64,000 bases of DNA from OCS155 cluster bacterium AG-426-D23 (GTDB lineage: Bacteria > Actinomycetota > Acidimicrobiia > Actinomarinales > Actinomarinaceae), in NCBI GenBank assembly GCA_003213165.1, contig QCNO01000003.1, positions 21,009-85,008 on the forward strand, in the 5' to 3' direction. Numbering within the stretch: the stretch's first letter is position 1; each line of letters begins with the position of its first letter. The notes beneath the pieces were generated by a model. The model saw only the letters and a program-made list of their open reading frames with translations, ran no database searches and was not told the DNA's origin. The translations under genes were made by a program, and so were the position numbers. Positions 29,427 to 57,562 of this stretch are shown here, piece by piece.

Positions 29427-29503
29427 ATCAAGAATTAGTGTTCCAACTATGGTAAAAACTACAATAAGTTCTGAAGATATTGCAAAATAATTTATAGAAA
29501 TTT

Positions 29504-31072
29504 TTAACCCCCAAAGGCTTTGGATAGCATTGCTATAACCGCATCATTTGTTGCGCCAAATATTAATTTAGGAAATACCCCAATTAATACTGTTAAAATA
29601 ACCAGTGGAATCCATGCTGAAAGCTCATAAAAGTCTGCATCATGAAGGTCTTTATCTGACCATTCATCTGATGGCTCTCCTAAATTAACTCTTTGTAGCA
29701 TCCAAAGTAAATAACCTGCTGTTAAGACAGTGCCAATAGCTCCAGCAACCATAGAAGTCCTGAATACAGTTGTGTTTAAACCGTCTAGTGGATTATAAGC
29801 ACCTAATAAAGCCATAAATTCTCCCCAAAAGCCAGCTAGACCAGGGAGGCCTAATGAAGCCATTGCAGTAAACCCTAGCAATGCACCCGTTTTTGGAAGT
29901 AACTTCATGTTTCCACCCAGTCTGCCCATGTCTCTTGTGTGGTAGGTATGTGCCATAGAGCCTGACAAAAAGAATAATAGTCCAGTGATTACCCCATGAG
30001 CAACCATTCCTATCATTGCCGCATTGATTCCTATTGGTGTTAGAGAAGCTATTCCTAGCATTACAAATCCCATATGACCAACTGATGAAAAAGCGATAAG
30101 TCTCTTCAAATCTGTTTGTGCAAGACAAGCCAAAGATCCATATATAATTCCAATTGCAGAGAGAATAGCAATTGCTGGAGCCCACGCTTTTGCCTGCTCT
30201 GGAAGAATTGGTATCGCAATTCTAACAAAACCATATGATCCAAGCTTCAAAAGGATAGCAGCCAATAATACTGAACCAACTGTTGGTGCTGCAGTATGTG
30301 CATCTGGAAGCCATGTGTGAAGAGGCCACATTGGAACTTTTACAGCAAATCCCAAAAATAATACAGCAAATACAAGCGTTGCAAATGTTCCGGTAAATGC
30401 GCCTGAGGTTCCAAGCTCAATTAACTCAGGAATACTAAATGTTTTATTTCCCCGATAATATAGGCCTAAAAAACCAAGTAACATAAAAGCTGATCCAAAT
30501 AATGTGAAAACAAAAAACTTAATACTTGCATAAAGTCTCGTCTCTATCTGATTTTTAAATCCAGATACGGTCCTTACAGTTTTATCACCCCATATCCCGA
30601 TCATGAAGTACATAGGTAATAATACAATTTCAAAAAATACAAAGAAAAGAATCAAGTCTAACGCTACAAATGTTCCATTCATTCCAGTCTCGAGAACAAG
30701 TATTAAAGCTAAAAAACCTTTGGGACTTTTTGGTTCAGGTAGATGCTCTAAAGAGTAGATTATTGCCAAAACGGTAATAAATGTTGATAGCACTAAAAGG
30801 GGTAGGGAGATGCCGTCTATGCCTATTTCATAATTTGCATTTATACTTTTAATCCAAGAAATCTTATTGCCAAGTTGGAGCTTTTCGGCTGACGAAAAAT
30901 CAAATTGAAAAAGCAAGATTGCACTTAAAACAAAAGTGATTAGTGAAGAAGCTAATGCAAACCGTTTAATTAATTGCTCTTGAGCTTTTGGTATTAGGGT
31001 GATTACAAATGCACTTATCAAAGGGAAAAAGACTACTGCAGAAAGCCCAATACCATTTGTAAATAATTCCAC
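29504..31072 (-). CDS. nuoM: NADH-quinone oxidoreductase subunit M (operon 1)
   Basis: 522-aa antiporter-like subunit with ...PMWPLHTWLPDAHTAAPT..., the NuoM/ND4 signature. Confidence 0.93.
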   Translation of the reverse strand: MELFTNGIGLSAVVFFPLISAFVITLIPKAQEQLIKRFALASSLITFVLSAILLFQFDFSSAEKLQLGNKISWIKSINANYEIGIDGISLPLLVLSTFITVLAIIYSLEHLPEPKSPKGFLALILVLETGMNGTFVALDLILFFVFFEIVLLPMYFMIGIWGDKTVRTVSGFKNQIETRLYASIKFFVFTLFGSAFMLLGFLGLYYRGNKTFSIPELIELGTSGAFTGTFATLVFAVLFLGFAVKVPMWPLHTWLPDAHTAAPTVGSVLLAAILLKLGSYGFVRIAIPILPEQAKAWAPAIAILSAIGIIYGSLACLAQTDLKRLIAFSSVGHMGFVMLGIASLTPIGINAAMIGMVAHGVITGLLFFLSGSMAHTYHTRDMGRLGGNMKLLPKTGALLGFTAMASLGLPGLAGFWGEFMALLGAYNPLDGLNTTVFRTSMVAGAIGTVLTAGYLLWMLQRVNLGEPSDEWSDKDLHDADFYELSAWIPLVILTVLIGVFPKLIFGATNDAVIAMLSKAFGG

Positions 31073-31080
31073 TTTTCCCC

Positions 31081-33096
31081 CTATATTATAAATAAAATTA
31101 ATAGACTAATTGTCACAACGCCACCTAAAAACATCATTAAATATTGTTGTGTCTTACCTGTTTGTAATAATTTGACCTTACCGCCAAAACTATCAGTACC
31201 CGATGAAGACATATTTAACAATTTATCAATTCCATTTTGATCAAAATTATTGTACACAATACCGCCCAATAAAGAAGCTATTTGTCCAAAACCATTGACA
31301 AATCTATCAATTACATTTGTGTTAAATTTATCTACTGCTCTAGAAATATTTATTTTTACTGGATCAATTACATACTTGAAATAAAAGTCATCTAAATAAT
31401 ACTTGTTTTCAAGAACTGACCAGATTGGTTGAATTTTAATTTTATCATCACCTGTTTCAGCACTTCCTTGCAGTTGATATAAGTAATATCCAAGTGCGAT
31501 ACCAAGCAAACCTGCTAACAAGCCACTTGATAGTGCAAATAAGTCAAAGCTTTCAGGATGGTATTCAACAATTTTGTTCTTCCTTGTCGTAACCCAGTCT
31601 GTGAATCCTGTATAAACACCAGGAATATTTACCCAACCTGAGGCTATCGCAAAGACAGACAATGCCAAAAGCGGTGTTGTCATAAGATTGTGAGACTCGT
31701 GAGGATGACCATGGCCTCTATACTCTCCAAGAAATGTTAAAGAGACTGCTCTTGTCATATAAAATGCTGTTATAAACGCTCCTAAAACTGCTATAAAAAA
31801 GAACGTTATTTCTCCTTCATGATTAAAAGACGCAAGAATTTCGTCTTTAGAGAAAAAACCTGCGAATGGTGGGAGTCCTGCCAAAGCAACTGTTCCAATT
31901 ATGAATGTTGCAAACGTCTTTGGCATAACTTTTCTTAATCCCCCCATTTCTAACATACTATTGCTATGCACAGCATGTATAACAGACCCTGCTCCCAGAA
32001 ACAACAGAGCTTTAAAGAATGCATGAGTCCATAAATGAAATAATGCGGCAGTATATGCACCTGAACCAATTGCAGCAACCATATAGCCTAGCTGACTTAC
32101 TGTTGAGTATGCGAGAACCTTTTTTAGGTCGTCTTGAACAACTGCAATTAATCCCGCTGCTAGTAAAGTGATTACACCAAAAAGCATCACAATATCTAAT
32201 GCATCAGGTGCCATTGATTTATAAAATGGAAACATTCTTGCTAGTAAATAAACACCGGCTGTAACCATTGTTGCTGCATGCATAAGTGCAGAGACTGGTG
32301 TTGGACCTGCCATAGCATCAGGCAACCAAACATGTAATGGAAATTGAGCACTCTTGCCCATGGCGCCAATAAATAATAAAATTGCGGCGATAAATGCAAC
32401 TGTAGATAGCTTTTCATATTCATGTGTTGCCTGATAAAGAATTTCAGAAATTCTCAATGTACCAGTGTTTAAAGCTAAAATAATTATTCCAATCATCAAA
32501 CCTACGTCAGCTATCTTATTTGTAATAAATGCTTTCATAGCAGCAGAAGAATTGTCTTTTTTCTCCCAATAGTGTCCGATTAATAAGTAAGAACAGACGC
32601 CAACAAGTTCCCATCCAATTAAAATTTGAATTAGTGTGGGAGAGGACACTAAAACTAACATACTTCCAGCAAATAAAGTTAGCGATGTAAAGAAAAAAGT
32701 ATATCTGATTTCTCCCTCCATGTAATTTGTTGCATAAATAAAGACAAGCAAGGCAACCGTTCCAACAACAAAATACATCATTATTGAGAGACCATCGACA
32801 ACCCAACCAAACTCAATATCAAATACACCTATACTTCCAACGTTTATAAAAAATTCGTTTACTACACCACTAGTAATGTGGGAGTACATAAGTGCAGAAC
32901 TATACAAGAATATTAATCCTATTGTAGCTAATGCTACTTCAGCACCCTTTAAAGGGAGATGCTTACCCATGAAAGTTATTATCAATGCAGCTACAAAAGG
33001 TAGTAGTACTAATAACCATGCATACTGAGCTAAAAGTCCACCATCAGTATAAATTAATTCACCTTCAGCAAAAATAGTTGTAGTGAAATTTACCAT
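31081..33096 (-). CDS. nuoL: NADH-quinone oxidoreductase subunit L (operon 1)
   Basis: 671-aa ORF with ...KSAQFPLHVWLPDAMAGPTPVSALMHAATMVTAGVY..., the NuoL/ND5 signature, plus a long C-terminal lateral-helix region. Confidence 0.94.
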   Translation of the reverse strand: MVNFTTTIFAEGELIYTDGGLLAQYAWLLVLLPFVAALIITFMGKHLPLKGAEVALATIGLIFLYSSALMYSHITSGVVNEFFINVGSIGVFDIEFGWVVDGLSIMMYFVVGTVALLVFIYATNYMEGEIRYTFFFTSLTLFAGSMLVLVSSPTLIQILIGWELVGVCSYLLIGHYWEKKDNSSAAMKAFITNKIADVGLMIGIIILALNTGTLRISEILYQATHEYEKLSTVAFIAAILLFIGAMGKSAQFPLHVWLPDAMAGPTPVSALMHAATMVTAGVYLLARMFPFYKSMAPDALDIVMLFGVITLLAAGLIAVVQDDLKKVLAYSTVSQLGYMVAAIGSGAYTAALFHLWTHAFFKALLFLGAGSVIHAVHSNSMLEMGGLRKVMPKTFATFIIGTVALAGLPPFAGFFSKDEILASFNHEGEITFFFIAVLGAFITAFYMTRAVSLTFLGEYRGHGHPHESHNLMTTPLLALSVFAIASGWVNIPGVYTGFTDWVTTRKNKIVEYHPESFDLFALSSGLLAGLLGIALGYYLYQLQGSAETGDDKIKIQPIWSVLENKYYLDDFYFKYVIDPVKINISRAVDKFNTNVIDRFVNGFGQIASLLGGIVYNNFDQNGIDKLLNMSSSGTDSFGGKVKLLQTGKTQQYLMMFLGGVVTISLLILFII

Positions 33097-33395
33097 TTCA
33101 TTAAATCAAATTCATTTATGTTGGCTGTTTGTCTATTTCTAAACAGCATAAGAACAATCGCAAGTCCTATCCCAACCTCAGCTGCTGCAATTGTGATTAT
33201 AAAAATTGTAAAAATTTGCCCTTGCATCATAGCGTCCGCAAGCATTGTATCAAACATAATGAAATTAATATTTACAGAGTTAAGAATTAGCTCTATTGAC
33301 AGAAGGACCATCACCGCATTTCTTCGGACTAAAATTCCGTAAATACCTAATGAAAATAAAGCAGCAGCAACTACTAATACAGGTTGGACAATCAA
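33090..33395 (-). CDS. nuoK: NADH-quinone oxidoreductase subunit K (operon 1)
   Basis: 101-aa, 3-TM protein with the conserved membrane Glu (LLSIELILNSVN ... AAAEVGIGLAI). Confidence 0.9.
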   Translation of the reverse strand: MIVQPVLVVAAALFSLGIYGILVRRNAVMVLLSIELILNSVNINFIMFDTMLADAMMQGQIFTIFIITIAAAEVGIGLAIVLMLFRNRQTANINEFDLMKW

Positions 33396-33910
33396 ACTTG
33401 ATCCTCATCAATCAGTGCTTCATCTTTTCTTGCTAATGTAATACCTCCTATTAGGGCAGCAAGCAAAATAAATGAAACTAATTCAAAAGGAAATACAAAT
33501 CTACTGAGTAAAATTTCACCAAGCAATTCAGTTGACGACCCAGAAGTAATTACAACCTCACCATCAAATCCATTTACTAATATATATGAAAACAAGAAAA
33601 ATATTGAACCTGCGATTGCCGCACCTAACTTTTTATTTTTATCGTTGTCAAGCTCAGCATTTTTACCCAGGGGAGCTCTAGTTATCATAATTCCAAATAA
33701 AAAGAGAACGATGACTGCGCCAATATAGACAAGAACTAGTACAAGAGCAACAAACTCTGTAGATAAAAGTAAAAACAATACTGAAGTTAAAGCAAGTGTG
33801 AAAACAAGTGAAATAGCAGCATGAATAACATTAGAAGTCGTAACAACTCTGACTGCTGTTGTAATTAGTAATAAAAGAACGAAATAAGTTACTATTTCAA
33901 AAATTTCCAT
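33392..33910 (-). CDS. nuoJ: NADH-quinone oxidoreductase subunit J (operon 1)
   Basis: 172-aa hydrophobic protein in the I-J-K position; ...VYIGAVIVLFLFGIM... is typical of NuoJ/ND6. Confidence 0.88.
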   Translation of the reverse strand: MEIFEIVTYFVLLLLITTAVRVVTTSNVIHAAISLVFTLALTSVLFLLLSTEFVALVLVLVYIGAVIVLFLFGIMITRAPLGKNAELDNDKNKKLGAAIAGSIFFLFSYILVNGFDGEVVITSGSSTELLGEILLSRFVFPFELVSFILLAALIGGITLARKDEALIDEDQV

Positions 33911-34396
33911 TTAACTTTCGAGTCCTTCAGGATCTGGAACAGTTTGAAGCCAATCATCTAATCGTTCTTTGTCGTGAAGCATATCGCCCATGTTAAATTC
34001 AGAATATTCATATTCTGGTGACCAAAATAAAGCATCGAATGGACAAACTTCAACACAGATCCCACAGTACATACATAACGCATAGTCAATGTCAAATCGA
34101 TCTAGAACAGCCCTACTTCTTTGTCTGCCTCCAGGTTTTGAAGGAGGTTGTAATTCTTTGTGGCCTTCTATATAAATACACCAGTCAGGACATTGTCGTG
34201 CACAAAGCATACAACTAGTACATGCTTCTTGATCTAAAGCAATAACTCCTCTTGCTCTCGGTGCAAGTTTTTCTTTTTCAAATGGGTAATTTACATTCGG
34301 TTTTGAATGGAAAGGAGATAGAGTTTTAAGCATATTTACTATGACGATCTTAATTCCAATTAAAAATCCCGGTACTTTTGGTCTAAAGTTTTTCAT
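33911..34396 (-). CDS. nuoI: NADH-quinone oxidoreductase subunit I (operon 1, short form)
   Basis: 161-aa ORF with two 4Fe-4S motifs, CTSCMLCARQCP and CMYCGICVEVCP. Confidence 0.93.
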   Translation of the reverse strand: MKNFRPKVPGFLIGIKIVIVNMLKTLSPFHSKPNVNYPFEKEKLAPRARGVIALDQEACTSCMLCARQCPDWCIYIEGHKELQPPSKPGGRQRSRAVLDRFDIDYALCMYCGICVEVCPFDALFWSPEYEYSEFNMGDMLHDKERLDDWLQTVPDPEGLES

Positions 34397-35367
34397 TAGA
34401 ATCCAACTTTCATAATTGCTGTTACAAGAATATTAACTAAAGATGCTGGGATTAGTATCTTCCACGCTAAGTTTTGTAATTGATCTTCTCTAAATCTTGG
34501 CTGTGACCACCTTATTGCTACCAAAATAAATCCTAAAATAGCTGTTTTTGTTAAAAGGACAATTGGTCCATAAAAGTTAACCCATTCGGTTGGCAAAAGT
34601 GGCACATGATAGCCACCAAGAAATAGTGTTGAGGCAATTGCACATAAAATGAACATATTCATATATTCGGAAATATAAAAAATAAGGAATCTTATACCAG
34701 AGTATTCTGTCATAAAACCCATAGTTAATTCGGATTCGCCAATAGGCATATCGAATGGAACTCTCATCATTTCAGCTGTCGCCGCAACCATAAAAATTAA
34801 AAACCCAACTATCTGACCGCCTACAACAAAAGGAACTCCCCATTCAATTTGTTTTTCTACAATTCCAACTAAAGACATAGTTTCAGCTTGAATAACAACT
34901 CCAACAACTGCAAGTATCAGTGGAAGTTCATACGCTATTAGCTGCCCAGCTGCTCTCAACCCTCCCATTAGGGAGTACTTATTTGCTGATGACCATCCAG
35001 CAGTTAATACACCTATAGTTCCCAATGAGCTTATAGCGAGTGCAAAAAAGACACCTAATTCTAAATCTGCAACAACTAACGTAGGGCTCAATGGAACTAC
35101 AGCAAACAAAGCTACACAAGAAACCATTACATACGCAGGCGCCCATTTAAATACTGGCCTGTCCACCTCAGTTGGGATTATGTCTTCTTTTTGAATAAAT
35201 TTTAGAATTTCAGCTACTGGAAATATAAAACCTCTAAGTCCTACATGCAAAGGTCCAGGTCTTCTCTGCATCCATGAAGCACCTTTAACATCCATTATTG
35301 TGAAAGTAATTGCACCAGTTAAAGCAGCTCCTGCAAGAAGGCCTACCTTTATCAAAACCTCTGTCAT
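34396..35367 (-). CDS. nuoH: NADH-quinone oxidoreductase subunit H (operon 1)
   Basis: 323-aa polytopic ORF with the VPFDMPIGESELTMGFMTEYSG signature of NuoH/ND1. Confidence 0.93.
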   Translation of the reverse strand: MTEVLIKVGLLAGAALTGAITFTIMDVKGASWMQRRPGPLHVGLRGFIFPVAEILKFIQKEDIIPTEVDRPVFKWAPAYVMVSCVALFAVVPLSPTLVVADLELGVFFALAISSLGTIGVLTAGWSSANKYSLMGGLRAAGQLIAYELPLILAVVGVVIQAETMSLVGIVEKQIEWGVPFVVGGQIVGFLIFMVAATAEMMRVPFDMPIGESELTMGFMTEYSGIRFLIFYISEYMNMFILCAIASTLFLGGYHVPLLPTEWVNFYGPIVLLTKTAILGFILVAIRWSQPRFREDQLQNLAWKILIPASLVNILVTAIMKVGF

Positions 35368-36560
35368 CTGTCTACATCTCCTAATACAAAATCTAAACTA
35401 CCCATTATTGCAATCAAGTCCGGTAGCAAAGCACCTTCAAGCAAATTAGGCAAAATAGATATATTGCTAAAAGAAGCTGTTCTTACTTTAAGCCTATATG
35501 GCCCTAACCCTCCATCAGATATTATGTAATAACCCATTTCTCCTTTTGGATTTTCAGCTCTTACATATGTACGTCCTTTAGGGACTTTTATGACCTTGGG
35601 TACCTTAGCTTGTAAAGGTCCAGAGGGCATTGAATCAATAGCTTGCAAAACTATTTTTGCGGATTCAACCATTTCTTTAACTCTTACATCCCATCGATCA
35701 TAACAATCTCCGTTCTCGCCAACGGGAATTTCATATTCAAATTGATCATATGGCAAATAATCTGTTTGAGTTCTCAAGTCTGATTTGACACCTGAAGCTC
35801 TAAGTATTGGACCAGATACTCCAAATGCTTCTGCGATCTCAGGAGTTAAGACGCCAACATCTTTTGTTCTTTTTTTAAATACTTCATTTCCACCAATTAG
35901 ATTCTGAAATTGATCAGCTGCCTCTATAACTTTTTGCATGGCTATTTTTGTATCTCTATAAAATCCCGCAGGTAAATCTTGAATATTTTTTTTTGTAGTT
36001 GGACCAGCTCCAGCAGCAGGTTTTACTCCACCTATTCGATTAAAGTTTGGATGAAAGCGACCGCCAGTTACTGACTCAATTAAATCTAAAACTCTTTCTC
36101 TGTCTTCCATTGCATAAAAAATTGGAGTTAACGCGCCAACTTCCAGAGCATACGCTCCATTAAATACAAAATGTGAAGAAATTCTGGCCATCTCGGTAAG
36201 AATTAATCGAATATATTTAGCTCTATCAGGTACTTCAATTTCCATTAATCTCTCAGCACCAGCTATAAATGGAATTTCATTGGAAAAACCAGCAACCCAA
36301 TCTATACGGTTTACGAGTGTTGTTATTTGGGGATATGTTCTAACTTCTGCCAATTTTTCATAGCCACGATGCATGTAACCAAGAACGGGTTTTACGTCAT
36401 GAACTTTTTCTCCATCTACTTTAGCGACCAATCTCAACACTCCGTGTGTAGATGGATGTTGAGGTCCTATATTCAGTGTCATGTCTTCAGTTTCTATTTC
36501 GACAGATACAGATGCCTCTGAAAAGTTCTTAATATTTTGTGGATCTAATGCATTAACCAT
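35364..36560 (-). CDS. nuoD: NADH-quinone oxidoreductase subunit D (operon 1)
   Basis: 398-aa ORF with NIGPQHPSTHGVLRL, GYMHRGYEKL and C-terminal LGDVDR. Confidence 0.95.
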   Translation of the reverse strand: MVNALDPQNIKNFSEASVSVEIETEDMTLNIGPQHPSTHGVLRLVAKVDGEKVHDVKPVLGYMHRGYEKLAEVRTYPQITTLVNRIDWVAGFSNEIPFIAGAERLMEIEVPDRAKYIRLILTEMARISSHFVFNGAYALEVGALTPIFYAMEDRERVLDLIESVTGGRFHPNFNRIGGVKPAAGAGPTTKKNIQDLPAGFYRDTKIAMQKVIEAADQFQNLIGGNEVFKKRTKDVGVLTPEIAEAFGVSGPILRASGVKSDLRTQTDYLPYDQFEYEIPVGENGDCYDRWDVRVKEMVESAKIVLQAIDSMPSGPLQAKVPKVIKVPKGRTYVRAENPKGEMGYYIISDGGLGPYRLKVRTASFSNISILPNLLEGALLPDLIAIMGSLDFVLGDVDR

Positions 36561-37098
36561 CTACTTGTTCACCACTTTCTGAATCTTCTGGCATACCCTC
36601 TACGTCCACATCTCCGGGCCAAGGCTTTACCTCCCTACTGATTAATTCAAAAGATTTGAGCATAGGGTTTCCTTCGTATCCATCAGGAAGATAAAGTTTT
36701 TCAAGATTTGGATGATTTGCAAAACTTATTCCAAACATTTCATATGCTTCTCTCTCATGCCAGTTGGCTCCTTCATATGTTCCAACTAGAGAATCAATTT
36801 GTGGTTCTGATTTATCAATAGTTGTAGAAACAGTAATTAAATTTGTATTTTCTACATCAGATAAGCAGGTAATTAATTCGAAACACGGTGTAACGCTTTC
36901 TTTAGGAGCTTCACCAACTGAAACATCATTGTCCCAATCCACTGCTGAGAGCCAAGAGAAAAATTTTAAGTTGAACTCATCTCTAAGTTGTTCATGTGTT
37001 TCAATCCATTGTGTTGAATCAACCTTGATATTGATTGTTTCAAACTCCAACACTGCGTTTGTAAAACTTTCTTTTATATTGTTAAAAAAATCTTCCAT
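36553..37098 (-). CDS. nuoC: NADH-quinone oxidoreductase subunit C (operon 1)
   Basis: 181-aa ORF with ...GANWHEREAYEMFGISFANHPN..., the NuoC/30-kDa signature. Confidence 0.92.
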   Translation of the reverse strand: MEDFFNNIKESFTNAVLEFETINIKVDSTQWIETHEQLRDEFNLKFFSWLSAVDWDNDVSVGEAPKESVTPCFELITCLSDVENTNLITVSTTIDKSEPQIDSLVGTYEGANWHEREAYEMFGISFANHPNLEKLYLPDGYEGNPMLKSFELISREVKPWPGDVDVEGMPEDSESGEQVDG

Positions 37099-37099
37099 G

Positions 37100-37597
37100 T
37101 TAAATAGGCTCTGTCTGAACTTCTGACCATTTTTCCTTCATATCCTCACCACGAATTTTTTTCTGAAGAAGAATTATTCCCTCCTGAAGCGCTTCTGGTC
37201 TTGGCGGACAACCTGGAACGTATACATCTACAGGAATTAATTGATCAACGCCCTTGGTGACTGAGTAAGAATCCCAATACGGGCCACCGCTATTAGAGCA
37301 TGAGCCCATTGAAATGACGTACTTTGGTTCAGGCATTTGGTCATAAAGTCTTTTGACTGAAGGAGCCATCTTATCTGTCACTGTTCCAGCAACAATCATG
37401 AAATCAGCCTGTCGTGGAGATGCGGGAAGTGGAATTACTCCTAATCTCATGAAATCATGCCTAGGGCCACTTACAGCCATAACCTCAATAGCACAGCATG
37501 CTAACCCAAATTGAAAGTACCAAAGTGAATATGATCTAGCCCAGTTAAAGACTGATGATATAGGTTTTGGAAGGCCGAATTTGTCTATGACTCCCAC
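37100..37597 (-). CDS. nuoB: NADH-quinone oxidoreductase subunit B (operon 1)
   Basis: 165-aa ORF with GLACCAIE ... GSCSNSGG ... PGCPPRPE, the cluster N2 ligands. Confidence 0.95.
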
Positions 37598-37953
37598 TTG
37601 AGCACATCCTTTCTTATTGCGTAAATAAGGCCAATCAAAAGAATGAAAATAAAAACAAACATTTCAATTAAACCAAAATAACCCAACTTTTCTAAATTGA
37701 TAGCCCATGGAAATATGAAAACTGCTTCAACATCAAAAATTACAAAAAGTAAACCGAATATATAGTACCTTACATATGTTTGACTCCATCCTGTACCTAC
37801 AGGATCTACACCACATTCATAAGTTTGCAGTTTTTCAGCATAGGGTTTGTTTGGTCTGAGCACGGAGGCTACCCCGAGTAATAGTACGACCAGAAATAGG
37901 CCGAATCCCAGCACTGCTCCTATGGTCACGTAGTCTTGAAAATAAGAAATCAT
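37585..37953 (-). CDS. nuoA: NADH-quinone oxidoreductase subunit A (operon 1)
   Basis: 122-aa, 3-TM protein with TYECGVDP and [11 protein letters not shown] motifs; first gene of the operon. Confidence 0.92.
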
Positions 37954-38034
37954 AATTTATAGTTTAGTTAAGCCTCTAAAAAGTTTAGTTTTTTCTTAAA
38001 CTTCAGTGTAATTTTTTTGTAAGATTTTTTATAA

Positions 38035-39123: not shown

Positions 39124-39141
39124 ATTACTTATAATTAGTTT

Positions 39142-39930: not shown

Positions 39931-40005
39931 TGGCACTTTCTTATATTGGTTTATTTTTAATAATTATACTGCTCATATTTTTTGGAAAAAAAATTAAATA
40001 AGTAT

Positions 40006-40809
40006 TTAATTCGGTTGGTATGTTCCAAAAAATACTTGCCAGGCAAGACAAGTCTTAGCAAGCAAGCTTAGCCAAATGTAAGCTCTTTCACCGTATAGAT
40101 AGTCTTTCCATTTACCTACTTGCTTATATTGCAAAATCATATTTATTGAGAAAGTATTAAAGAATAAAAATATACTTACGAAAATCCATACTACAAATTG
40201 TGGGACTCCCTGGGGATTAGAATCAGTTGCAACGCCATCTCCTATGAGATTAACAAATATAAAAATCCATGGTGTAATACCAACCAAACAGCCCATGATA
40301 TAACTTGTCCAGTCAACTTTTTCAGTATATTGATTGTGAACTTCCATCATCCAACCAAACCAACACATTGCTGCATTCATAAAAAATATTCCAGCTAAAG
40401 CCCATACATCATAAATTCCTACAAGTAAAGCAATTAGGACTATCATCACAGATGCACTGATTGAGTATTCAATCCAACGCACTTTATTTATTCCTTTTGA
40501 TAAGTCGCTTTTATATTTGTTGTAAAAAGGACCGGAAATAAGATAGTGAGCAACGGCTGAAGCAAGTAAAAAGGTTGCTACAGCCGGACCAAAGTTTGTA
40601 ACTTCTCTCCATATTTCAAGTTCAGGTACTAATGCAAAACTTGAAGGATCTTCTGGAGAACCAACTCCTACTAATTGAGTTAATGTTATTGGCACAACAA
40701 AATCTGAATTCACAACAGTGCCTAACCAAAAAAGTAAACCACCTTGTATCAAGTGAACAGTACCCATAATGATATTGAATCTTTTAAGTTTCTTTATCTT
40801 AATTTCCAT
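40006..40809 (-). CDS. Heliorhodopsin (retinal-binding 7-TM photoreceptor, inverted topology)
   Basis: 267-aa 7-TM ORF with full-length resemblance to prototype heliorhodopsin 48C12. Matching segments: GTVHLIQ (TM1 His), AVAHYLISG (TM2 His), RWIEYSISASVMIVLIA (TM3 counterion Glu), and GERAYIWLSLLAKTCLAWQVF (TM7 Schiff-base Lys). A GGGGGAG ribosome-binding site precedes the ATG. Confidence 0.9.
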   Translation of the reverse strand: MEIKIKKLKRFNIIMGTVHLIQGGLLFWLGTVVNSDFVVPITLTQLVGVGSPEDPSSFALVPELEIWREVTNFGPAVATFLLASAVAHYLISGPFYNKYKSDLSKGINKVRWIEYSISASVMIVLIALLVGIYDVWALAGIFFMNAAMCWFGWMMEVHNQYTEKVDWTSYIMGCLVGITPWIFIFVNLIGDGVATDSNPQGVPQFVVWIFVSIFLFFNTFSINMILQYKQVGKWKDYLYGERAYIWLSLLAKTCLAWQVFFGTYQPN

Positions 40810-40863
40810 GTCTCCCCCAATTAGAAATAATTAATATAAGTTTAGTTTTTTATTTAGAATTAA

Positions 40864-41061
40864 ATGATGGATAAACAACTAATTTTCTCAGAAATTGAAT
40901 CAATGATTTTTGACATTGAAACCGCAATAAAATCTCTTGCAAATTCAAGAGAGTATATCGCGGAAGATGATTATTCAAGAGCATTTACTCACTTGGCAGA
41001 AATAGAAATTGAATTACAGACTTTGGCTGGAAGGGTGGCGTATATTAAATCAAGCCTTTGA
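40864..41061 (+). CDS. Hypothetical 65-aa helical protein divergent from heliorhodopsin
   Basis: Open frame starting 54 nt from the heliorhodopsin start on the opposite strand. Acidic, predicted all-helical, no recognisable family. Its 3' end overlaps the convergent ABC ATPase gene by 12 nt. Confidence 0.35.
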   Translation: MMDKQLIFSEIESMIFDIETAIKSLANSREYIAEDDYSRAFTHLAEIEIELQTLAGRVAYIKSSL

Positions 41062-42075
41062 CGGAAAAGTAGTTACCTCAGAAATTTCAATATTAATTCT
41101 GTCACCAGCTTCATAAATAGTGTTAGGTAAAGAACGTGCTCTAAAAACTTCACCTTTACTATTTTGAAATGATATTACCTGATCGTGGCCATAGAAGGTA
41201 CATTCTTTAACCAAGTAACTTCCGTCTGAATCTAAAGTGAGTTCAATACACTCAGGTCTAATTGATACATCTAAAGCACCATCATAAGCAGATACAAAAG
41301 TTCCTAAAGATGTCTCAACTCTACCGTTAACTGAGTAGCCCTTTAATATATTGGGGTCACCTACAGAGTTCGCCACAGTTTGGCTAACTGGATTTAAATA
41401 AATTTCTTGCGGCGTAGCGCTTTGTATAACTTTTCCATTTTCTAACACACTAACTACATCGCACACTGACAATGCTTCCTCTTGATCATGAGTTACAATT
41501 ATCGCAGTAGTCTCAGTTTTCCTTAAGAGATAAACTACTTCGTCTCTTAATTCCCTGGCCATATGTGCATCTAAGCTTGTAAATGGCTCATCTAGAAGAA
41601 TTACTTCCGGACCGGGAGCTATCGCCCTTGCAAGTGCAACTCTTTGTTGTTGACCACCAGATAGTTCTTGAGGATATTTATTTTTATAATTTTCTAAATT
41701 ACACATTTCTAAAACTTCTTCTAATCTTCCTTCATTTATTTCATTTTTGGAAAGTCCAAAAGATATATTTTTTTCAACGTCTAGATGTGGAAATAATGCA
41801 TAGTCTTGGAAAACCATACCAACATTTCTATCTTCAGGAGGTACAAAAACTTCATCGCTTGAAATGATTTGATTTCTCATTTCTATTAAACCAGAGTCTT
41901 GTTTTTCAAATCCAGCAATTAATCTTAATGCAGTAGTCTTTCCTGAGCCTGACATTCCCAACACGCCAACAATTGATCCATTCCAAACGTCCAAATTAAA
42001 ATCTGACAAAACAGTCTCTTTTTCGTAAGACTTTGTTACTGATCTTGCTCGTATAATTAAATTTTCAAATGCCAT
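41050..42075 (-). CDS. ABC importer ATP-binding protein (Fe3+/polyamine-type, C-terminal TOBE-like domain)
   Basis: 341-aa ORF with Walker A GMSGSGKTT, signature LSGGQQQRVALARA and Walker B ILLDEPFTSLD. Confidence 0.92.
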   Translation of the reverse strand: MAFENLIIRARSVTKSYEKETVLSDFNLDVWNGSIVGVLGMSGSGKTTALRLIAGFEKQDSGLIEMRNQIISSDEVFVPPEDRNVGMVFQDYALFPHLDVEKNISFGLSKNEINEGRLEEVLEMCNLENYKNKYPQELSGGQQQRVALARAIAPGPEVILLDEPFTSLDAHMARELRDEVVYLLRKTETTAIIVTHDQEEALSVCDVVSVLENGKVIQSATPQEIYLNPVSQTVANSVGDPNILKGYSVNGRVETSLGTFVSAYDGALDVSIRPECIELTLDSDGSYLVKECTFYGHDQVISFQNSKGEVFRARSLPNTIYEAGDRINIEISEVTTFPSKA

Positions 42076-43631
42076 TAGTTTGTTAAATTTCTAGTACTAA
42101 GTATATATGTAGGAAGTGCGCTAATTGCTAACAAAATAAATGCAGAAAATGCTGCTTGTGTAAATAAAGCTTCAGAAGCGTTAGACCATATGTCAACAGC
42201 CATAGTGCTAAAGCCAGTTGGACGCAGTAGTAAGGTTTGCGGTAACTCTTTCATTGTTGAAAGAAAAACTAAAGCTGCACCAGCTAATAATCCTTTGTAA
42301 ATAAGTGGAAATGTAATTTTTATAAATGTTTCCATCTTTGAAAAACCAAGGCCAGAACTTGCTTCAATATAGGATAGTTTCACTTGTTCCATTGACGCTT
42401 GCCCTCCTCCAACAGCTTGAGGTAAAAAAACTATTAAGTATGAGATTATAAGTGTTGTAAAAGTTTGATAAATCACTGGAACAATTTTAATAGTTATAAA
42501 CAACATTGAAATTCCTACAGCAATATGAGGAAGCCCATATAAAGTAAGGGTAACTTTTTCGAATAAATCACCAAATTTTGATCTATATTGAGAAATCATT
42601 ATAACTATCGGAGTAGCAATAATCATTGCAAATATTGAAGTTACAGTAGCTGCTGTTAGTGATCCTACTACGCCCGATAGAACGTTATTTACAGCATTGC
42701 CTTGTGAAATACCTCGAATTAACCAATAGGAAAGAACACTTATTGGTATAACTAAACTGAATAAAATAACTAAAGCAAAAAATGCTAAAACTAAAACTTT
42801 ATTTTTATAAGACAATTTAGCTTTTACAATTTCTCTTGGTGTTCCAGAAACTTTAGCTGACCTACTTAATTCACTTCCCCTTTGAACAAAACTGATTATT
42901 AAAGCAATAAATATCAACAAGGTCGAATAGAAAATTACAGGATCACCATTTATATTTATTGTGTAATAAGAGTAAATTGCCTTTGTTAATGTTCCATATT
43001 TCATTAAAGAAACAGCACCAAAATCAGAAATTACATACAATCCAACTAAAAGAGATGAATAAATAATAGGTTTTTTTAATCTTGGTAAAACAACACTGCT
43101 ATACATCTTTATTTTTTTAACTCCAAGTGACCTAGCAGCATCTTCAACTGTTGAATCTAAATTTCTAAGTGCACTACTGCAAATTAATTGAACATATGGA
43201 TAAGTAAACAAAGTAAGTACAATCCAGCTTCCAATAAAACCATCAATTCCAGATATTTCATTTATCCCAAAACTTGAAAAAATATCTACAAATAATCCCC
43301 TTGGTGAAAATGCTGAAACATATGTTAAAGCACCTATGTAAGACGGTATTACTAAAGGTAAAACTGTAAGAGTAAACAATAACTTAGAAGCAGGAATTTC
43401 ATATCGAACAATAAGAATAGAAATTAATAAACCTAAAAATAGGCTTGTAAGAATTACTGCAATAAATAAAAATATTGTATTCAAAAATAATGTAAGAACA
43501 TCCCATGATTGCAAAAATTCAGACAAATTTTTTGAAAAATTTGCAAAACGCCAAAACATATAAAAAATAGGCATCAAAAATAAAATTAAAATAAAAGTAT
43601 TTGTTACTATCAGAGGTTTTGGTGCCTTCAC
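42075..43631 (-). CDS. ABC importer permease, fused double-domain (FbpB/ThiP-type)
   Basis: 518-aa polytopic ORF (~12 TM) with two tandem permease halves; its stop overlaps the ATPase start. Confidence 0.88.
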   Translation of the reverse strand: MKAPKPLIVTNTFILILFLMPIFYMFWRFANFSKNLSEFLQSWDVLTLFLNTIFLFIAVILTSLFLGLLISILIVRYEIPASKLLFTLTVLPLVIPSYIGALTYVSAFSPRGLFVDIFSSFGINEISGIDGFIGSWIVLTLFTYPYVQLICSSALRNLDSTVEDAARSLGVKKIKMYSSVVLPRLKKPIIYSSLLVGLYVISDFGAVSLMKYGTLTKAIYSYYTININGDPVIFYSTLLIFIALIISFVQRGSELSRSAKVSGTPREIVKAKLSYKNKVLVLAFFALVILFSLVIPISVLSYWLIRGISQGNAVNNVLSGVVGSLTAATVTSIFAMIIATPIVIMISQYRSKFGDLFEKVTLTLYGLPHIAVGISMLFITIKIVPVIYQTFTTLIISYLIVFLPQAVGGGQASMEQVKLSYIEASSGLGFSKMETFIKITFPLIYKGLLAGAALVFLSTMKELPQTLLLRPTGFSTMAVDIWSNASEALFTQAAFSAFILLAISALPTYILSTRNLTN

Positions 43632-43668
43632 TCTATTAAGGATAAATAAAAATTACAGTTATTAAAAG

Positions 43669-43701
43669 AAAAAAATTCTGGCCAGAATTACCTGGCTAGA
43701 A
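43669..43701 (-). terminator. Hairpin plus U-run after the binding-protein gene (intra-operon attenuator/terminator)
   Basis: Minus strand: TTCTAGCCAG, 6-nt loop, CTGGCCAGAA (10-bp stem, one mismatch), followed by T7. It lies 32 nt after the binding-protein stop. Confidence 0.45.
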
Positions 43702-43732
43702 TTTTTGACTCATTTTGATACTAAATGAAGAA

Positions 43733-44833
43733 TCAAAATCCTGCCTGAGCAATCAACTCTACAGCTTTTTCCTGCCATAGAGATAACGCTGACCAATTTA
43801 GGTTTGAAGGAGAGTTCAAACTATTAATGTCTGGAAGCAAAGCATTAGGCTTAATACCTGTAACAAGAGGGAACTCGTAAACAGTATTTGTAAATGTTTC
43901 TTGAGCCGCTTTTGAATGAAGGAATTCAATAAATGCTAACGCTGCTGGTTTATTTTGGCTTGAAGACAAAATACCAACACCAGCAGGCATAACCATTGCT
44001 CCACATCCTTCATCCAAATATACATTCTTAATTGGTTCATTTCCGTTTTCAGCCAACACTCGCAATGTGTAATAGTGGTTAATCATTCCAATATCTAGCT
44101 CACCGGCTGCAGCAGCTGCAACTTGTGGTGAGTTTTTAGGATATTCAGCATATCCAAGTCCATTTATGGTGGTTAGCCATTCTAAGACTTTTTCTTCACC
44201 GTCCAACTCAACCATACAAGCAACCATTGCTATGAATGAAGAATTGGTTGGAGCAAGTCCTAATCGATTTCTAAACTTTTCATCTGCAAGACCATAAATA
44301 TCATTTGGCAATTCCGAATCTTGAACGTCTCTAGTATCAACAACTAGAGCTCTAGATCTACCGGATGTTCCAACCCAGTAATTATTTTTATCTACAGCCC
44401 AACCGGGAACATTATCTAAAATATCAGCTGGTAGTCTCTCAAACAGGCCTTCTTTGGCGACAATTCCAAGACTTACTGGGTCTTGAGAAAAGAAAATATC
44501 AGCAGGACTGATCGCGCCTTCAAGTTTAAGAGTTCCTGCTAACTCCGCACTTTTAGCATATCTTACCTCGACTGTTACCCCCGAAGTAGATTCAAATTCA
44601 GCAATAATTTCTGATACTAAACTTTCTTTTCTTCCGCTATAGATGACAAGCGTCCCGCTTACTTCTGCTTCTTCCTCGGTTAGTGCTGCATTAACTGCAG
44701 CTTCAATTTCTTCTTGAGAGACTTCTCCAGCTGGACCTTGTTCACCAGCCGGACCACGTTCACCAGCTGTAGTAGTACAAGCCGATAAAACTATTGTGAG
44801 AGCAACTAAAACTAAAATATATTTTTTATTCAC
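43733..44833 (-). CDS. Fe(III)-type ABC substrate-binding lipoprotein (FbpA/AfuA-like)
   Basis: The start is placed at the GTG at 44833 (GAGG 5 nt upstream), which gives the signal MNKKYILVLVALTIVLSAC with an LSAC lipobox; the tracked ORF extends to 44878. The mature part is FbpA-like, including the tandem-Tyr motif MINHYY. Confidence 0.85.
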   Translation of the reverse strand: MNKKYILVLVALTIVLSACTTTAGERGPAGEQGPAGEVSQEEIEAAVNAALTEEEAEVSGTLVIYSGRKESLVSEIIAEFESTSGVTVEVRYAKSAELAGTLKLEGAISPADIFFSQDPVSLGIVAKEGLFERLPADILDNVPGWAVDKNNYWVGTSGRSRALVVDTRDVQDSELPNDIYGLADEKFRNRLGLAPTNSSFIAMVACMVELDGEEKVLEWLTTINGLGYAEYPKNSPQVAAAAAGELDIGMINHYYTLRVLAENGNEPIKNVYLDEGCGAMVMPAGVGILSSSQNKPAALAFIEFLHSKAAQETFTNTVYEFPLVTGIKPNALLPDINSLNSPSNLNWSALSLWQEKAVELIAQAGF

Positions 44834-45264
44834 ATTTACCTCAAATTTCAAATTTACTTTGTTAATACTACTTAACATTATAAGTTAATGCTAATTTATT
44901 TAAAAAAAAATTAAAAATTTATAGAATTCAGATTTAAGTTTAAGTCAAGAAATTTAACTGTGTTGAGAAAATTAGTTTACGCTACCTGATTTAGAAAGCC
45001 TTTTAAAATTAAACGATCTTAAAACAAACTTTCCCCCATTGCGGACAAACCACATAAAGCCAGCAAGTAAGTAAGCGTAAGGACACATCATATTACTGAT
45101 ATTATACATTAAATAGTAAAATATTAATAATGCAAAAAGATCCTAAAATTGTAAGAAAATATGAACCAGTAATTTGGTTACTTTTTTTTGGATTGACCTT
45201 CGCGGTTGGTTGCCCAGCATTTTAGAAATATCATTATTTGTTAATTACTGTTAACATGTAACTA

Positions 45265-45951: not shown

Positions 45952-45991
45952 TTCAATTTATGATTATACAGAGATTTTTTATAATTGACCT

Positions 45992-46474: not shown

Positions 46475-46476
46475 AT

Positions 46477-47079: not shown

Positions 47080-47111
47080 TTCTTATATATTAGTTATTTA
47101 ATTTATTGTTG

Positions 47112-56731: not shown

Positions 56732-56732
56732 G

Positions 56733-57561: not shown

Positions 57562-57562
57562 G

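What the first reader, a model, noticed from the sequence alone, without database searches (positions are those of the whole stretch)
40006..40809. Bona fide heliorhodopsin gene in a streamlined actinobacterial genome
The 267-aa 7-TM ORF carries every residue I can recall as diagnostic for heliorhodopsins. These are the TM1 His (GTVHLIQ), the TM2 His (AVAHYLISG), the single counterion Glu in RWIEYSISASVM (TM3), and the Schiff-base Lys in SLLAKTCLAWQVF (TM7).

The Lys/Arg-rich N-terminus (MEIKIKKLKRF) fits the N-in, inverted topology of the family. It has none of the type-1 pump motifs (no RYxDW in TM3, no DxxxK context in TM7).

Heliorhodopsins are non-pumping with a slow photocycle, and their physiological output is still contested. 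Any conserved partner in such a compact genome would therefore be informative. No retinal or carotenoid biosynthesis gene (blh, crtEBIY) is present in these 64 kb.
Basis: partly seen in the sequence, partly recalled or inferred. Interest (0 to 1): 0.8.

Follow-up and report, generated by a model that had tools for sequence, protein, structure and literature searches.

The report
Known heliorhodopsin of marine Actinomarina
This is a genuine, intact and very strongly conserved heliorhodopsin (an inverted, non-pumping light-sensing membrane protein) in the tiny marine actinobacterium Candidatus Actinomarina, but the gene and its neighbourhood were already described in papers from 2020 and 2021, so the call is correct but not new.

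Summary
Window 40006-40809 (minus strand) is a 267-aa ORF. It scores 294.6 bits on Pfam Heliorhodopsin (cut-off 26.7) and 310 bits on the NCBIfam HeR equivalog (cut-off 100).

All diagnostic residues align to 48C12: H19/H23, H88/H80, E114/E107, S248/S237 and K252/K241. A confident AlphaFold model (pLDDT 92) matches solved heliorhodopsins at TM 0.89-0.95. Type-1 rhodopsins reach only about 0.5-0.63. Charge distribution supports N-in topology.

The host is Candidatus Actinomarina. The window is 100% identical over 9 kb to a single-cell genome contig. No crt or blh gene matched in any ORF of 200 aa or more in the 64 kb.

The finding is already published. Lopez-Perez et al. 2020 and Bulzu et al. 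2021 reported this HeR, its position between two nuo operons beside a ferric-iron ABC importer, its key residues, and the missing retinal pathway.

I add three minor points:
- HeR is under extreme purifying selection (dN/dS about 0.04).
- It is bracketed by opposite-strand genes, which argues against the proposed afu-HeR-nuo single transcript.
- A 64-aa helical-hairpin orphan gene not mentioned in the text I read of either paper sits 57 bp away, divergently, in all 54 Actinomarinales loci.

Its physiological output remains unknown.

The parts
40006..40809 (-). Heliorhodopsin (HeR) coding sequence, 267 aa. Key codons: H19 at 40755-40753, H88 at 40548-40546, counterion E114 at 40470-40468, S248 at 40068-40066, Schiff-base K252 at 40056-40054.
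   Evidence: ORF. Pfam/NCBIfam. Residue mapping to 48C12. All 49 invariant family columns kept. AF2 pLDDT 92.1 with 7 TM helices and an AB beta-hairpin. Foldseek top 10 all HeR. dN/dS 0.04.
40810..40866 (.). 57-bp AT-rich divergent spacer between the HeR start and the small ORF's probable start (40867); 54 bp if the ORF starts at 40864. It holds the HeR Shine-Dalgarno sequence (GGGGGAG) and presumably both promoters.
   Evidence: Sequence. Alignment of 50 distinct upstream regions shows a conserved purine-rich SD and AT-rich stretch. Promoter assignment is an inference; the consensus scan gives fewer hits than shuffles.
40867..41061 (+). sORF64: a conserved orphan gene for a 64-aa soluble helical hairpin, transcribed divergently from HeR. 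Its 3' end overlaps the afuC stop by 12 nt. The longest ORF starts at 40864; orthologs indicate the second Met.
   Evidence: Intact in 54/54 Actinomarinales loci at 44-98% identity and about 64 aa. dN/dS 0.05-0.35. The KSLA(N/S)SRE peptide is kept while the overlapping hairpin is broken by synonymous changes. 298 homologs; taxon labels seen were Actinomarina/Actinomycetota apart from one 'Verrucomicrobiales' label; no Pfam family. AF2 pLDDT 96.9, helices 3-32 and 36-63. No specific fold or PDB match. Called as a 65-aa gene in public assemblies.
41050..44878 (-). Ferric-iron-type ABC importer directly upstream of HeR and co-oriented with it: afuC ATPase 41050-42075, afuB double permease 42075-43631, afuA substrate-binding protein 43733-44878.
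   Evidence: Pfam ABC_tran, 2x BPD_transp_1, SBP_bac_11/6/8/1. Conserved at this position in every Actinomarinales locus whose contig extends that far. Named afuABC in 10.1101/2021.02.01.429150 and Fe3+ ABC transporter in PMC7771536.
38035..39930 (+). Two opposite-strand genes convergent on the HeR 3' end: a type I phosphodiesterase-family protein (38035-39123) and a DUF4349 protein (39142-39930). They separate HeR from the 11-subunit nuo operon.
   Evidence: Pfam. PDE is present in every locus that extends past the HeR 3' end (L001-L053). DUF4349 is absent from about 19 loci, e.g. L001, L011, L026-L041, L050.
28023..37953 (-). 11-subunit complex I operon (nuoA-D, H-N; no nuoEFG) downstream of HeR. 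Context only.
   Evidence: Pfam on nuoA, D, H, I, L, M, N. Described in PMC7771536 and 10.1101/2021.02.01.429150.

Best explanation
The ORF encodes a functional heliorhodopsin of Candidatus Actinomarina. It is a 7-TM retinal protein inserted N-terminus-in. All-trans retinal, which must be scavenged because the lineage lacks a known biosynthetic pathway, binds K252 as a protonated Schiff base with E114 as the single counterion. H19 and H88 form the proton-accepting group. By analogy with the characterised heliorhodopsins it does not pump ions. Light instead drives a slow photocycle whose long-lived state changes the cytoplasmic face (basic ICL1/ICL3 loops, including the family-conserved K229-x3-K233-W-K235-D236 stretch) and modulates a partner protein. 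The gene is most likely transcribed on its own, from the 57-bp spacer it shares with the divergent sORF64. The partner is not identified. What is shown: family membership, residue placement, fold, strong purifying selection and order-wide conservation. What is inferred: retinal binding, the absence of pumping, the regulatory mode of action and the monocistronic transcript.
For: Family: PF18761 294.6 bits and NF038020 310 bits. Residues: H19/H88/E114/S248/K252 align to 48C12 H23/H80/E107/S237/K241, and N108, R111, E156, Y237 and E241 are also kept. All 49 invariant columns of a 98-sequence alignment are kept. Fold: pLDDT 92.1, seven helices plus an AB beta-hairpin. TaHeR matches at TM 0.89/0.95 and rmsd 1.8 A, 48C12 at about 0.81-0.87, and the best type-1 rhodopsin only at E=3.6e-4 with TM 0.63. 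Topology: K+R 12 inside against 1 outside. Function retained: dN/dS 0.04 against 0.11 for AfuC, and 83-100% identity across about 53 species genomes where neighbours fall to 45-80%. Helices B, C, F and G are the least variable. Regulatory precedents: AbHeR-glutamine synthetase (PMC9529153), TfHeR-photolyase (PMC9769723), OcHeR-OmrDE (PMC11109279). Own transcript: opposite-strand genes lie on both sides in every locus that extends far enough.
Against: No spectroscopy, transport assay or binding assay exists for this protein. Retinal supply is unexplained. None of the partner classes catalogued for other HeRs (GS, NAD synthetase, photolyase, MerR, TerC, MDR ABC exporter, SDR, hydrolase, DUF2177, DUF2238) is adjacent here. 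Within the order, cytoplasmic loops vary about as much as extracellular ones (44-50% against 31-52% variable sites), so there is no signature of a specially constrained docking face. Some viral HeRs do transport protons (PMC12873467 abstract), so 'non-transporting' is an extrapolation. No promoter was shown.
Confidence: 0.85

Rival explanations
1. HeR belongs to one afuABC-HeR-nuo(11-subunit)-NDUFAF7-htpX-pspE transcriptional unit and acts as a light switch on ferric-iron import and/or the alternative complex I (the Bulzu et al. 2021 proposal). By analogy with OcHeR-OmrDE, it would bind the AfuBC importer.
For: The same-strand order afuA-B-C, HeR, nuoA-N, methyltransferase, M48 peptidase, rhodanese, PfkB kinase is present in the window. 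It is conserved in every Actinomarinales locus whose contig extends that far and was described in 10.1101/2021.02.01.429150. A HeR modulating an ABC transporter has an experimental precedent (PMC11109279). One distant Coriobacteriia HeR locus (L073) also has nuoA/B about 6.5 kb downstream.
Against: HeR is separated from afuC by sORF64 on the opposite strand, and from nuoA by 1.1-1.9 kb of opposite-strand genes, in every locus that extends far enough. Actinomarinales genomes are syntenic overall (PMC7771536), so linkage within the order carries little weight. None of the 26 distant HeR loci has an afu-type importer close by; only weak 24-28% ATPase hits appear. The precedent is a heterodimeric exporter, whereas this is an SBP-dependent importer. 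No IdeR/DtxR box was found near HeR.
Confidence: 0.15
2. The divergent 64-aa helical-hairpin protein sORF64 is the lineage-specific cytoplasmic partner or regulator of this HeR, and the two genes form a co-regulated divergent pair.
For: sORF64 is always 50-60 bp from the HeR start on the opposite strand, in 54/54 loci. It is under purifying selection at the protein level. It is soluble and confidently folded. By the labels seen, it is restricted to the same order as this HeR clade. In the window's lineage HeR and sORF64 lie on the same side of a recombination breakpoint that separates them from afuC.
Against: Adjacency in a fully syntenic, 97%-coding genome is expected by default. No homolog was found next to HeRs outside the order. 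No family, motif or fold points to signalling. It evolves about 8 times faster than HeR (dN/dS 0.32 against 0.04). No interaction test was possible.
Confidence: 0.1
3. The protein is a light-driven or light-gated ion transporter, or an enzyme. Examples are a proton channel as reported for a viral HeR, or the carbonate/nitrate-reducing role once suggested from the 48C12 structure. It would then not be a protein-protein regulator.
For: Proton transport was reported for the viral V2HeR3 (PMC12873467 abstract). An enzymatic role was mooted from the 48C12 structure, as cited in PMC7771536. The polar cavity residues E114, H19, H88, S248, N108, E156 and Y115 are all kept.
Against: The closest solved relatives, TaHeR and 48C12, are described as non-pumping; that description rests on background knowledge of the original HeR papers, not on a test here. 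The host already has a dedicated proton pump, MACR. Nothing in the sequence distinguishes it from non-transporting HeRs.
Confidence: 0.06
4. It is a type-1 rhodopsin, another 7-TM family, or a decaying relic that cannot work because the cell makes no retinal.
For: Only that retinal biosynthesis genes are missing from the window and reportedly from the whole order.
Against: No Bac_rhodopsin hit at E<=1. Type-1 structures match only at TM about 0.5-0.63 with 9-16% identity. There is no RYxDW or DxxxK motif. The ORF is intact with dN/dS 0.04 across 54 loci. The same cells keep a type-1 pump that also needs retinal.
Confidence: 0.01

Closest known systems
Heliorhodopsin of 'Ca. Actinomarinales': Lopez-Perez et al. 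2020 (PMC7771536); cluster C11 of Bulzu et al. 2021 (10.1101/2021.02.01.429150, mSphere)
   Same: It is the same gene. It lies between the 11-subunit and 14-subunit nuo operons, is preceded by the Fe3+ ABC importer with an iron-dependent repressor nearby, has key residues equal to 48C12, and has no retinal pathway. The window is 100% identical over 9026 nt to an Actinomarina single-cell genome contig.
   Different: Nothing about the HeR itself differs. This lineage lacks the ferrochelatase that 28/53 loci carry in the cluster. The text I read of those papers does not mention sORF64 or the 31-aa micro-ORF. The opposite-strand genes around HeR argue against the single transcriptional unit they proposed.
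TaHeR, Thermoplasmatales archaeon heliorhodopsin (PDB 6is6, 7clj, 7u55)
   Same: It is the best sequence and structure match: E=6.6e-67, 47% identity, TM 0.89/0.95, rmsd 1.8 A. The counterion Glu, the Schiff-base Lys and Met at the 48C12-Q213 position are shared.
   Different: The Actinomarina protein has clade-specific insertions (WLGT 28-31 at the end of helix A, GVGSP 48-52 in the AB hairpin, VATD 193-196 in the EF loop). It also has clade-fixed substitutions at otherwise 85-100% conserved sites (C149, W150, V207, Y264, Q265). The host is bacterial and marine-epipelagic.
48C12 heliorhodopsin (PDB 6su3/6su4/6uh3), the founding member, from a freshwater actinobacterial fosmid
   Same: H23, H80, N101, R104, W105, E107, Y108, N138, E149, Y226, E230, S237 and K241 are all conserved. 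The fold matches at TM 0.80-0.87.
   Different: Identity is only 43-45%. Q213 becomes M224 and S112 becomes A119. The Actinomarinales clade is as far from other actinobacterial HeRs as from archaeal ones; its next relatives are at most 56% identical and include Thermoplasmata, Bathyarchaeia and Patescibacteria.
HeR-partner regulatory pairs: AbHeR-glutamine synthetase (PMC9529153), TfHeR-photolyase (PMC9769723), OcHeR-OmrDE ABC exporter (PMC11109279)
   Same: The photoreceptor family is the same, and the basic cytoplasmic loops said to mediate binding are retained (ICL3 KQVGKWKD). An ABC transporter is adjacent.
   Different: None of those partner genes is adjacent. The neighbouring ABC system is an SBP-dependent importer, not a heterodimeric MDR exporter. 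It is not demonstrably co-transcribed with HeR.

Membership tests
Heliorhodopsin (Pfam PF18761 / NCBIfam NF038020) | Scores above the curated family cut-offs over the full length | tested here: met
   PF18761: 294.6 bits against 26.7, profile positions 1-241 of 242. NF038020 equivalog: 310.2 bits against 100.
Heliorhodopsin (Pfam PF18761 / NCBIfam NF038020) | Retinal Schiff-base Lys in helix G (48C12 K241, TaHeR K238) | tested here: met
   K252 aligns to K241. The column is invariant in 98 sequences.
Heliorhodopsin (Pfam PF18761 / NCBIfam NF038020) | Single counterion Glu in helix C (48C12 E107) instead of the type-1 Asp pair | tested here: met
   E114 in RWIEYS aligns to E107 and is invariant. 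No RYxDW or DxxxK motif was found.
Heliorhodopsin (Pfam PF18761 / NCBIfam NF038020) | Conserved His pair of helices A and B (48C12 H23, H80) | tested here: met
   H19 and H88 align to H23 and H80. Both columns are invariant.
Heliorhodopsin (Pfam PF18761 / NCBIfam NF038020) | 7-TM fold closer to solved HeRs than to type-1 rhodopsins, with the long AB-loop beta-hairpin | tested here: met
   AF2 model pLDDT 92.1, strands 38-49 and 59-71, seven TM helices. The Foldseek top 10 are all HeR (TM 0.80-0.95). Type-1 rhodopsins appear from E=3.6e-4 with TM at most 0.63.
Heliorhodopsin (Pfam PF18761 / NCBIfam NF038020) | Inverted membrane topology (N-terminus cytoplasmic) | tested here: met
   Positive-inside rule on the model's loops: K+R is 5 (N-terminal segment) + 3 + 1 + 3 on the cytoplasmic side against 1 + 0 + 0 + 0 outside. 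This is a computational inference only; there is no experimental topology.
Heliorhodopsin (Pfam PF18761 / NCBIfam NF038020) | Binds all-trans retinal, has a slow photocycle and shows no ion pumping | not testable with these tools
   This requires expression, spectroscopy and transport assays.
Heliorhodopsin (Pfam PF18761 / NCBIfam NF038020) | Host is a monoderm prokaryote (the distribution rule discussed by Bulzu et al. 2021) | tested here: met
   The records holding the gene are labelled Candidatus Actinomarina / Actinomycetota.
Type-1 microbial rhodopsin (Pfam Bac_rhodopsin) | Family HMM match, helix-C RYxDW and helix-G DxxxK motifs, N-out topology | tested here: not met
   No Pfam hit other than PF18761 at E<=1. 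The motifs are absent. Structural similarity is only TM about 0.5-0.63 at 9-16% identity. The charge bias indicates N-in.
Operon-encoded HeR-partner regulatory pair (GS, photolyase, MDR ABC exporter and the other classes of PMC11109279) | HeR gene co-transcribed with one of the recurrent partner genes | tested here: not met
   The immediate neighbours are sORF64 and DUF4349/PDE, all on the opposite strand. No GS, photolyase, MerR, TerC or ABC exporter matched among the ORFs scanned with Pfam.

The most novel reading that the evidence does not exclude
HeR and the divergently transcribed orphan gene sORF64 (a 64-aa soluble helical hairpin, present in all 54 Actinomarinales loci and, by the labels seen, nowhere else) form a lineage-specific light-signalling pair. 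sORF64 would dock on the HeR cytoplasmic face and relay or tune its signal, possibly towards the adjacent ferric-iron importer. That would be a new type of heliorhodopsin transducer.
Probability: 0.1. Interest if true: 0.55.

Novelty: already known. Interest (0 to 1): 0.15.

Why it matters
Heliorhodopsins are abundant, and their physiological role is settled only for a few isolated cases. [quoted passage not shown] A gene kept under dN/dS of about 0.04 in such a genome must matter to the cell. That argument, and the locus itself, are already in the literature. This finding therefore adds confirmation rather than discovery. The useful residue is practical. HeR is probably its own transcription unit. 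The only strictly conserved immediate neighbour that has not been discussed is a 64-aa orphan gene, which gives experimenters one more candidate to test beside AfuABC and the 11-subunit complex I.

Tried and rejected
1. The terminator-like hairpin at 40952-40933 (-) between afuC and HeR. It lies in the sORF64 codons for KSLANSRE, and synonymous changes destroy it in most lineages while the peptide is kept. I rejected it as a conserved terminator or RNA element.
2. An IdeR/DtxR operator near HeR or afuA. The best sites in the whole window have 6 of 19 mismatches, which is chance level.
3. A structured RNA in the HeR-flanking and afuA-dtxR spacers. A permissive Rfam search gave only implausible eukaryotic sub-threshold hits, and the fold z-score was -0.64.
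4. Family assignment for sORF64. Pfam gave only coiled-coil noise at E>=0.005. The PDB profile search gave only designed coiled coils and keratin. The best Foldseek hit was E=0.38.
5. sORF64 or afu homologs next to the 26 distant HeRs (L055-L080). None was found beyond 24-28% generic ABC ATPase hits and one nuoA/B pair 6.5 kb away in L073.
6. A specially conserved cytoplasmic docking face. Loop variability is similar on both sides of the membrane.
7. The suspicion that the window is a chimeric assembly, because HeR+sORF64 are close to L001 while afuABC onward is close to L018. I rejected it because three independent single-cell genomes share the haplotype at 99.8-100%.
8. A ferrochelatase remnant in the 387-bp spacer. 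None was found. The conserved part of that spacer is a 31-aa micro-ORF.
9. The sigma-70 promoter scan around HeR gave fewer hits than shuffled sequence (4 against 7.4), so no promoter is claimed.
Full report
OBSERVATION. The ORF listing and translation show one ATG-started ORF of 267 aa at exactly 40006..40809, on the minus strand. A GGGGGAG Shine-Dalgarno sequence precedes the ATG.

FAMILY MEMBERSHIP. The protein matches Pfam Heliorhodopsin PF18761 at E=6.3e-88 (294.6 bits, cut-off 26.7) over 241 of 242 profile positions. No other Pfam family appears at E<=1. The NCBIfam equivalog 'heliorhodopsin HeR' scores 310.2 bits against a cut-off of 100. All six sequence matches in the PDB are heliorhodopsins. 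The best is the Thermoplasmatales archaeon HeR (6is6, 6.6e-67), followed by 48C12 (6su3, 4.6e-56).

From those printed alignments I mapped residues as follows: H19=H23, H88=H80, N108=N101, R111=R104, E114=E107, Y115=Y108, N145=N138, E156=E149, Y237=Y226, E241=E230, S248=S237, K252=K241. The differences from 48C12 are Q213 to M224 (TaHeR also has Met there) and S112 to A119.

In an alignment of the query with 97 homologs, 49 columns are invariant. They include H19, H88, E114, S248 and K252, and the query keeps all of them.

An AlphaFold2 model built on that alignment is confident (pLDDT 92.1, pTM 0.85). It shows seven long helices plus a two-stranded hairpin (38-49, 59-71) between helices A and B. 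Foldseek against the PDB returns ten heliorhodopsin chains first (6is6 at TM 0.89/0.95 and rmsd 1.8 A; 48C12 at TM 0.80-0.87). A gap of 13 orders of magnitude in E-value follows before the first type-1 rhodopsin (4hyj, E=3.6e-4, TM 0.63, 16% identity).

On the model's loop assignment, K+R residues number 12 on the predicted cytoplasmic segments and 1 on the extracellular ones, as expected for the inverted N-in topology.

ORGANISM AND DISTRIBUTION. A scan of one genome per GTDB species found the gene in about 53 genomes labelled Candidatus Actinomarina, Actinomarinales or OCS155, at 83-100% identity. Identity then falls abruptly to 52% or less in that scan, and to 56% or less in the protein database. 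The next relatives include Thermoplasmatales, Bathyarchaeia, Patescibacteria and other Actinomycetota. The window is 100% identical over 9026 nt to contig CACGRR010000005.1 of an Actinomarina single-cell genome and 99.8% identical to two others. GC content is 31-37%. The window also carries the S10/spc ribosomal cluster, tuf, fusA, rpoBC and two nuo operons, so this is core chromosome.

RETINAL GENES. I scanned every ORF of 200 aa or more with Pfam, except rpoB and rpoC, which I assigned by size and operon position. About 28 shorter ORFs of 100-197 aa (ribosomal proteins and small nuo subunits) were identified only by size and operon order. None of the scanned ORFs is a phytoene synthase or desaturase, a lycopene cyclase, a polyprenyl synthase or a Blh-type dioxygenase. 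Four ORFs gave no significant Pfam match: three of 124, 126 and 181 aa, and the 252-aa ORF at 24088-24846, whose only hit is a sub-threshold WD40 match. A six-frame HMM scan finds only this one HeR and no type-1 rhodopsin motif.

WHAT IS ALREADY PUBLISHED. Lopez-Perez et al. 2020 (PMC7771536) state several things:
- All Actinomarinales have one type-1 rhodopsin (MACR) and one heliorhodopsin.
[quoted passage not shown] - One nuo copy lacks EFG.
- The key residues match 48C12.
- The order lacks the genes for retinal synthesis.

Bulzu et al. 2021 (10.1101/2021.02.01.429150; mSphere) single the clade out as cluster C11. They list the same-strand order afuA, afuB, afuC, HeR, nuoA-N (11 subunits), NDUFAF7, htpX, pspE/rhodanese and adenosine kinase. 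They propose that these form a transcriptional unit in which HeR is a light switch.

My annotations reproduce that list gene for gene: SBP 43733-44878, double permease 42075-43631, ATPase 41050-42075, HeR, nuoA 37585-37953 through nuoN 28023-29426, Methyltransf_28 27003-28019, M48 peptidase 26142-26978, rhodanese 25808-26158 and PfkB 24839-25798. A 2026 preprint on 84 complete Actinomarina genomes still calls it 'a heliorhodopsin of unknown function'. The finding is therefore correct but already known.

WHAT THE ANALYSIS ADDS.

(a) Selection. Across the loci, summed dN/dS is 0.040 for HeR, 0.111 for AfuC and 0.324 for sORF64. In the more distant genera HeR stays at 91-93% identity. AfuC is about 75%, NuoA 79%, thymidine kinase 88% and the phosphodiesterase about 45%. 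Variable sites concentrate in the N-terminus, the AB hairpin and the loops. Helices B, C, F and G are nearly fixed.

(b) Clade-specific features. There are insertions WLGT 28-31, GVGSP 48-52 and VATD 193-196. There are fixed substitutions at sites that are 85-100% conserved elsewhere: I to C149, L to W150, Y to V207, L to Y264 and R to Q265. Their effect is unknown.

(c) Transcription. In every locus that extends far enough, HeR is preceded by an opposite-strand gene (sORF64). It is followed by one or two opposite-strand genes: a phosphodiesterase-family protein, with or without a DUF4349 protein. A single afu-HeR-nuo mRNA would have to run antisense through 0.2 kb and then 1.1-1.9 kb of coding sequence. 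I infer that HeR has its own promoter in or near the 57-bp spacer. No promoter or terminator could be demonstrated.

(d) sORF64. The 240 bp between afuC and HeR is not empty, in a genome whose median spacer is 3 bp. It holds an ORF (40864/40867..41061, plus strand) that is intact and about 64 aa long in all 54 Actinomarinales loci, although identity drops to 44%. It is under purifying selection. Its most conserved peptide, KSLA(N/S)SRE, is preserved while the overlapping RNA hairpin is not. Public assemblies already call it as a gene. A profile search finds 298 proteins; those listed are about 64-72 aa long and unnamed. Their taxon labels are Actinomarina or Actinomycetota, apart from one 'Verrucomicrobiales' label that I take to be a mis-binned MAG. 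The protein folds as a two-helix hairpin at pLDDT 96.9. It has no Pfam, PDB-sequence or fold relative beyond generic coiled coils. Neither paper mentions it in the text I could read. Bulzu et al. state that conservation is confined to HeR-oriented genes. That does not hold for sORF64, for the phosphodiesterase gene, or for the repressor and DUF454 genes.

HOW IT MOST LIKELY WORKS. The shown facts are family membership, residue placement, fold, charge bias and strong constraint. From the established properties of the family (48C12 and TaHeR structures; the original descriptions, from background knowledge) I infer the following. The protein binds all-trans retinal at K252 with E114 as counterion. 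It does not pump ions. It has a slow photocycle whose long-lived state signals through the cytoplasmic loops.

Three experimental precedents show HeRs binding and modulating a partner: glutamine synthetase (PMC9529153), photolyase (PMC9769723) and the OmrDE ABC exporter (PMC11109279). None of the ten recurrent partner classes listed in PMC11109279 is adjacent here.

The candidates from linkage are the AfuABC importer, the 11-subunit complex I and sORF64. Two observations weaken all three. Synteny is conserved across the whole genome in this order. The 26 distant HeR loci show no such neighbours, apart from one Coriobacteriia locus with nuoA/B 6.5 kb away. The sister order UBA5794 carries HeRs of a different, Nanopelagicales-like clade, so it does not help date the linkage.

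I put about 0.85 on 'functional, non-pumping photosensory or regulatory HeR with an unidentified partner'. I put about 0.15 on the afu/nuo switch model, about 0.1 on sORF64 as partner, and about 0.06 on a transport or enzymatic role. These partner models are refinements of the main reading rather than strict alternatives to it.

VERDICT. Novelty is 'already known'. Interest is low (0.15), because a specialist would not be surprised and nothing new becomes testable beyond one extra candidate partner.

Noticed in passing
window 40867-41061 (+): A conserved 64-aa orphan gene (sORF64) encoding a soluble helical hairpin, divergent from HeR by 57 bp and overlapping the afuC stop by 12 nt. It is intact in 54/54 Actinomarinales loci, has dN/dS 0.05-0.35 and has no family or fold assignment. 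It is not mentioned in the text I read of the two papers that describe this locus.
   Followed up: yes
window 45130-45225 (+): An unannotated 31-aa micro-ORF, MQKDPKIVRKYEPVIWLLFFGLTFAVGCPAF, which looks like a single-pass membrane peptide. It lies 40 nt upstream of the DtxR/IdeR-type repressor gene. It is conserved at 48-100% aa identity (motif NPK..EP..W...VGCP.F) in 50 of the 53 loci that returned a hit. It accounts for much of the conserved part of the otherwise anomalous 387-bp spacer 44879-45264.
   Followed up: partly
window 44879-45264; L001 2818-3837: A ferrochelatase gene (PF00762, E=2.5e-90) sits between afuA and the repressor in 28 of 53 Actinomarinales loci. It is absent there, and from the whole 64-kb window, in this lineage. 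No remnant was detected.
   Followed up: partly
window 36000-49000 compared with L001 and L018/L019: There is a mosaic relationship to the species-representative genomes. Positions 36.0-37.5 kb and 40.0-41.0 kb (HeR+sORF64) are 95-98% identical to AG-349-A01 (L001). From about 41.1 kb onward (afuABC, repressor, DUF454, tdk, ADH) identity is 98-99% to L018/L019 but only 75-82% to L001. dS jumps from 0.14-0.22 to above 2 across the sORF64/afuC junction. Three independent SAGs share the haplotype, so this is homologous recombination between Actinomarina lineages rather than an assembly chimera.
   Followed up: partly
window 39142-39930 (+): The DUF4349 gene convergent on HeR is a presence/absence polymorphism. 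It is missing from about 19 loci, e.g. L001, L011, L026-L041 and L050. The adjacent phosphodiesterase-family gene is the fastest-evolving gene of the region, at 44-83% identity.
   Followed up: no
window 51168-51730 (+): A 178-codon open frame (51194-51730) has no canonical start codon before residue 116. An ATG at 51168 lies in another frame, which would join it through a -1 shift at an A4 run (GCTAAAATCG). By eye the N-terminus looks like a TetR-type HTH, but Pfam gives no hit. It could be a frameshifted pseudogene, a sequencing error, a non-canonical start or programmed frameshifting.
   Followed up: partly
window 28023-37953 (-) and 51877-63962 (-): There are two complex I operons 14 kb apart. 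One has 11 subunits and lacks nuoEFG; the other has nuoE, F and G. Both were already described, and the short one was suggested to use F420 (PMC7771536).
   Followed up: no
window 21600-22555 (-): An ECF-type sigma factor (21971-22555) is followed by a 124-aa ORF with no Pfam match (21600-21974). That ORF may be its anti-sigma factor. It sits next to a tRNA cluster (Trp, Met, Thr, Tyr).
   Followed up: no
L073 (Coriobacteriia MAG SKMN01000024.1), about 6.5 kb downstream of its HeR: This is the only distant HeR locus of the 26 examined that also has nuoA/nuoB homologs on the same strand, downstream of HeR. It may be coincidence, or a second instance of HeR-complex I linkage.
   Followed up: no
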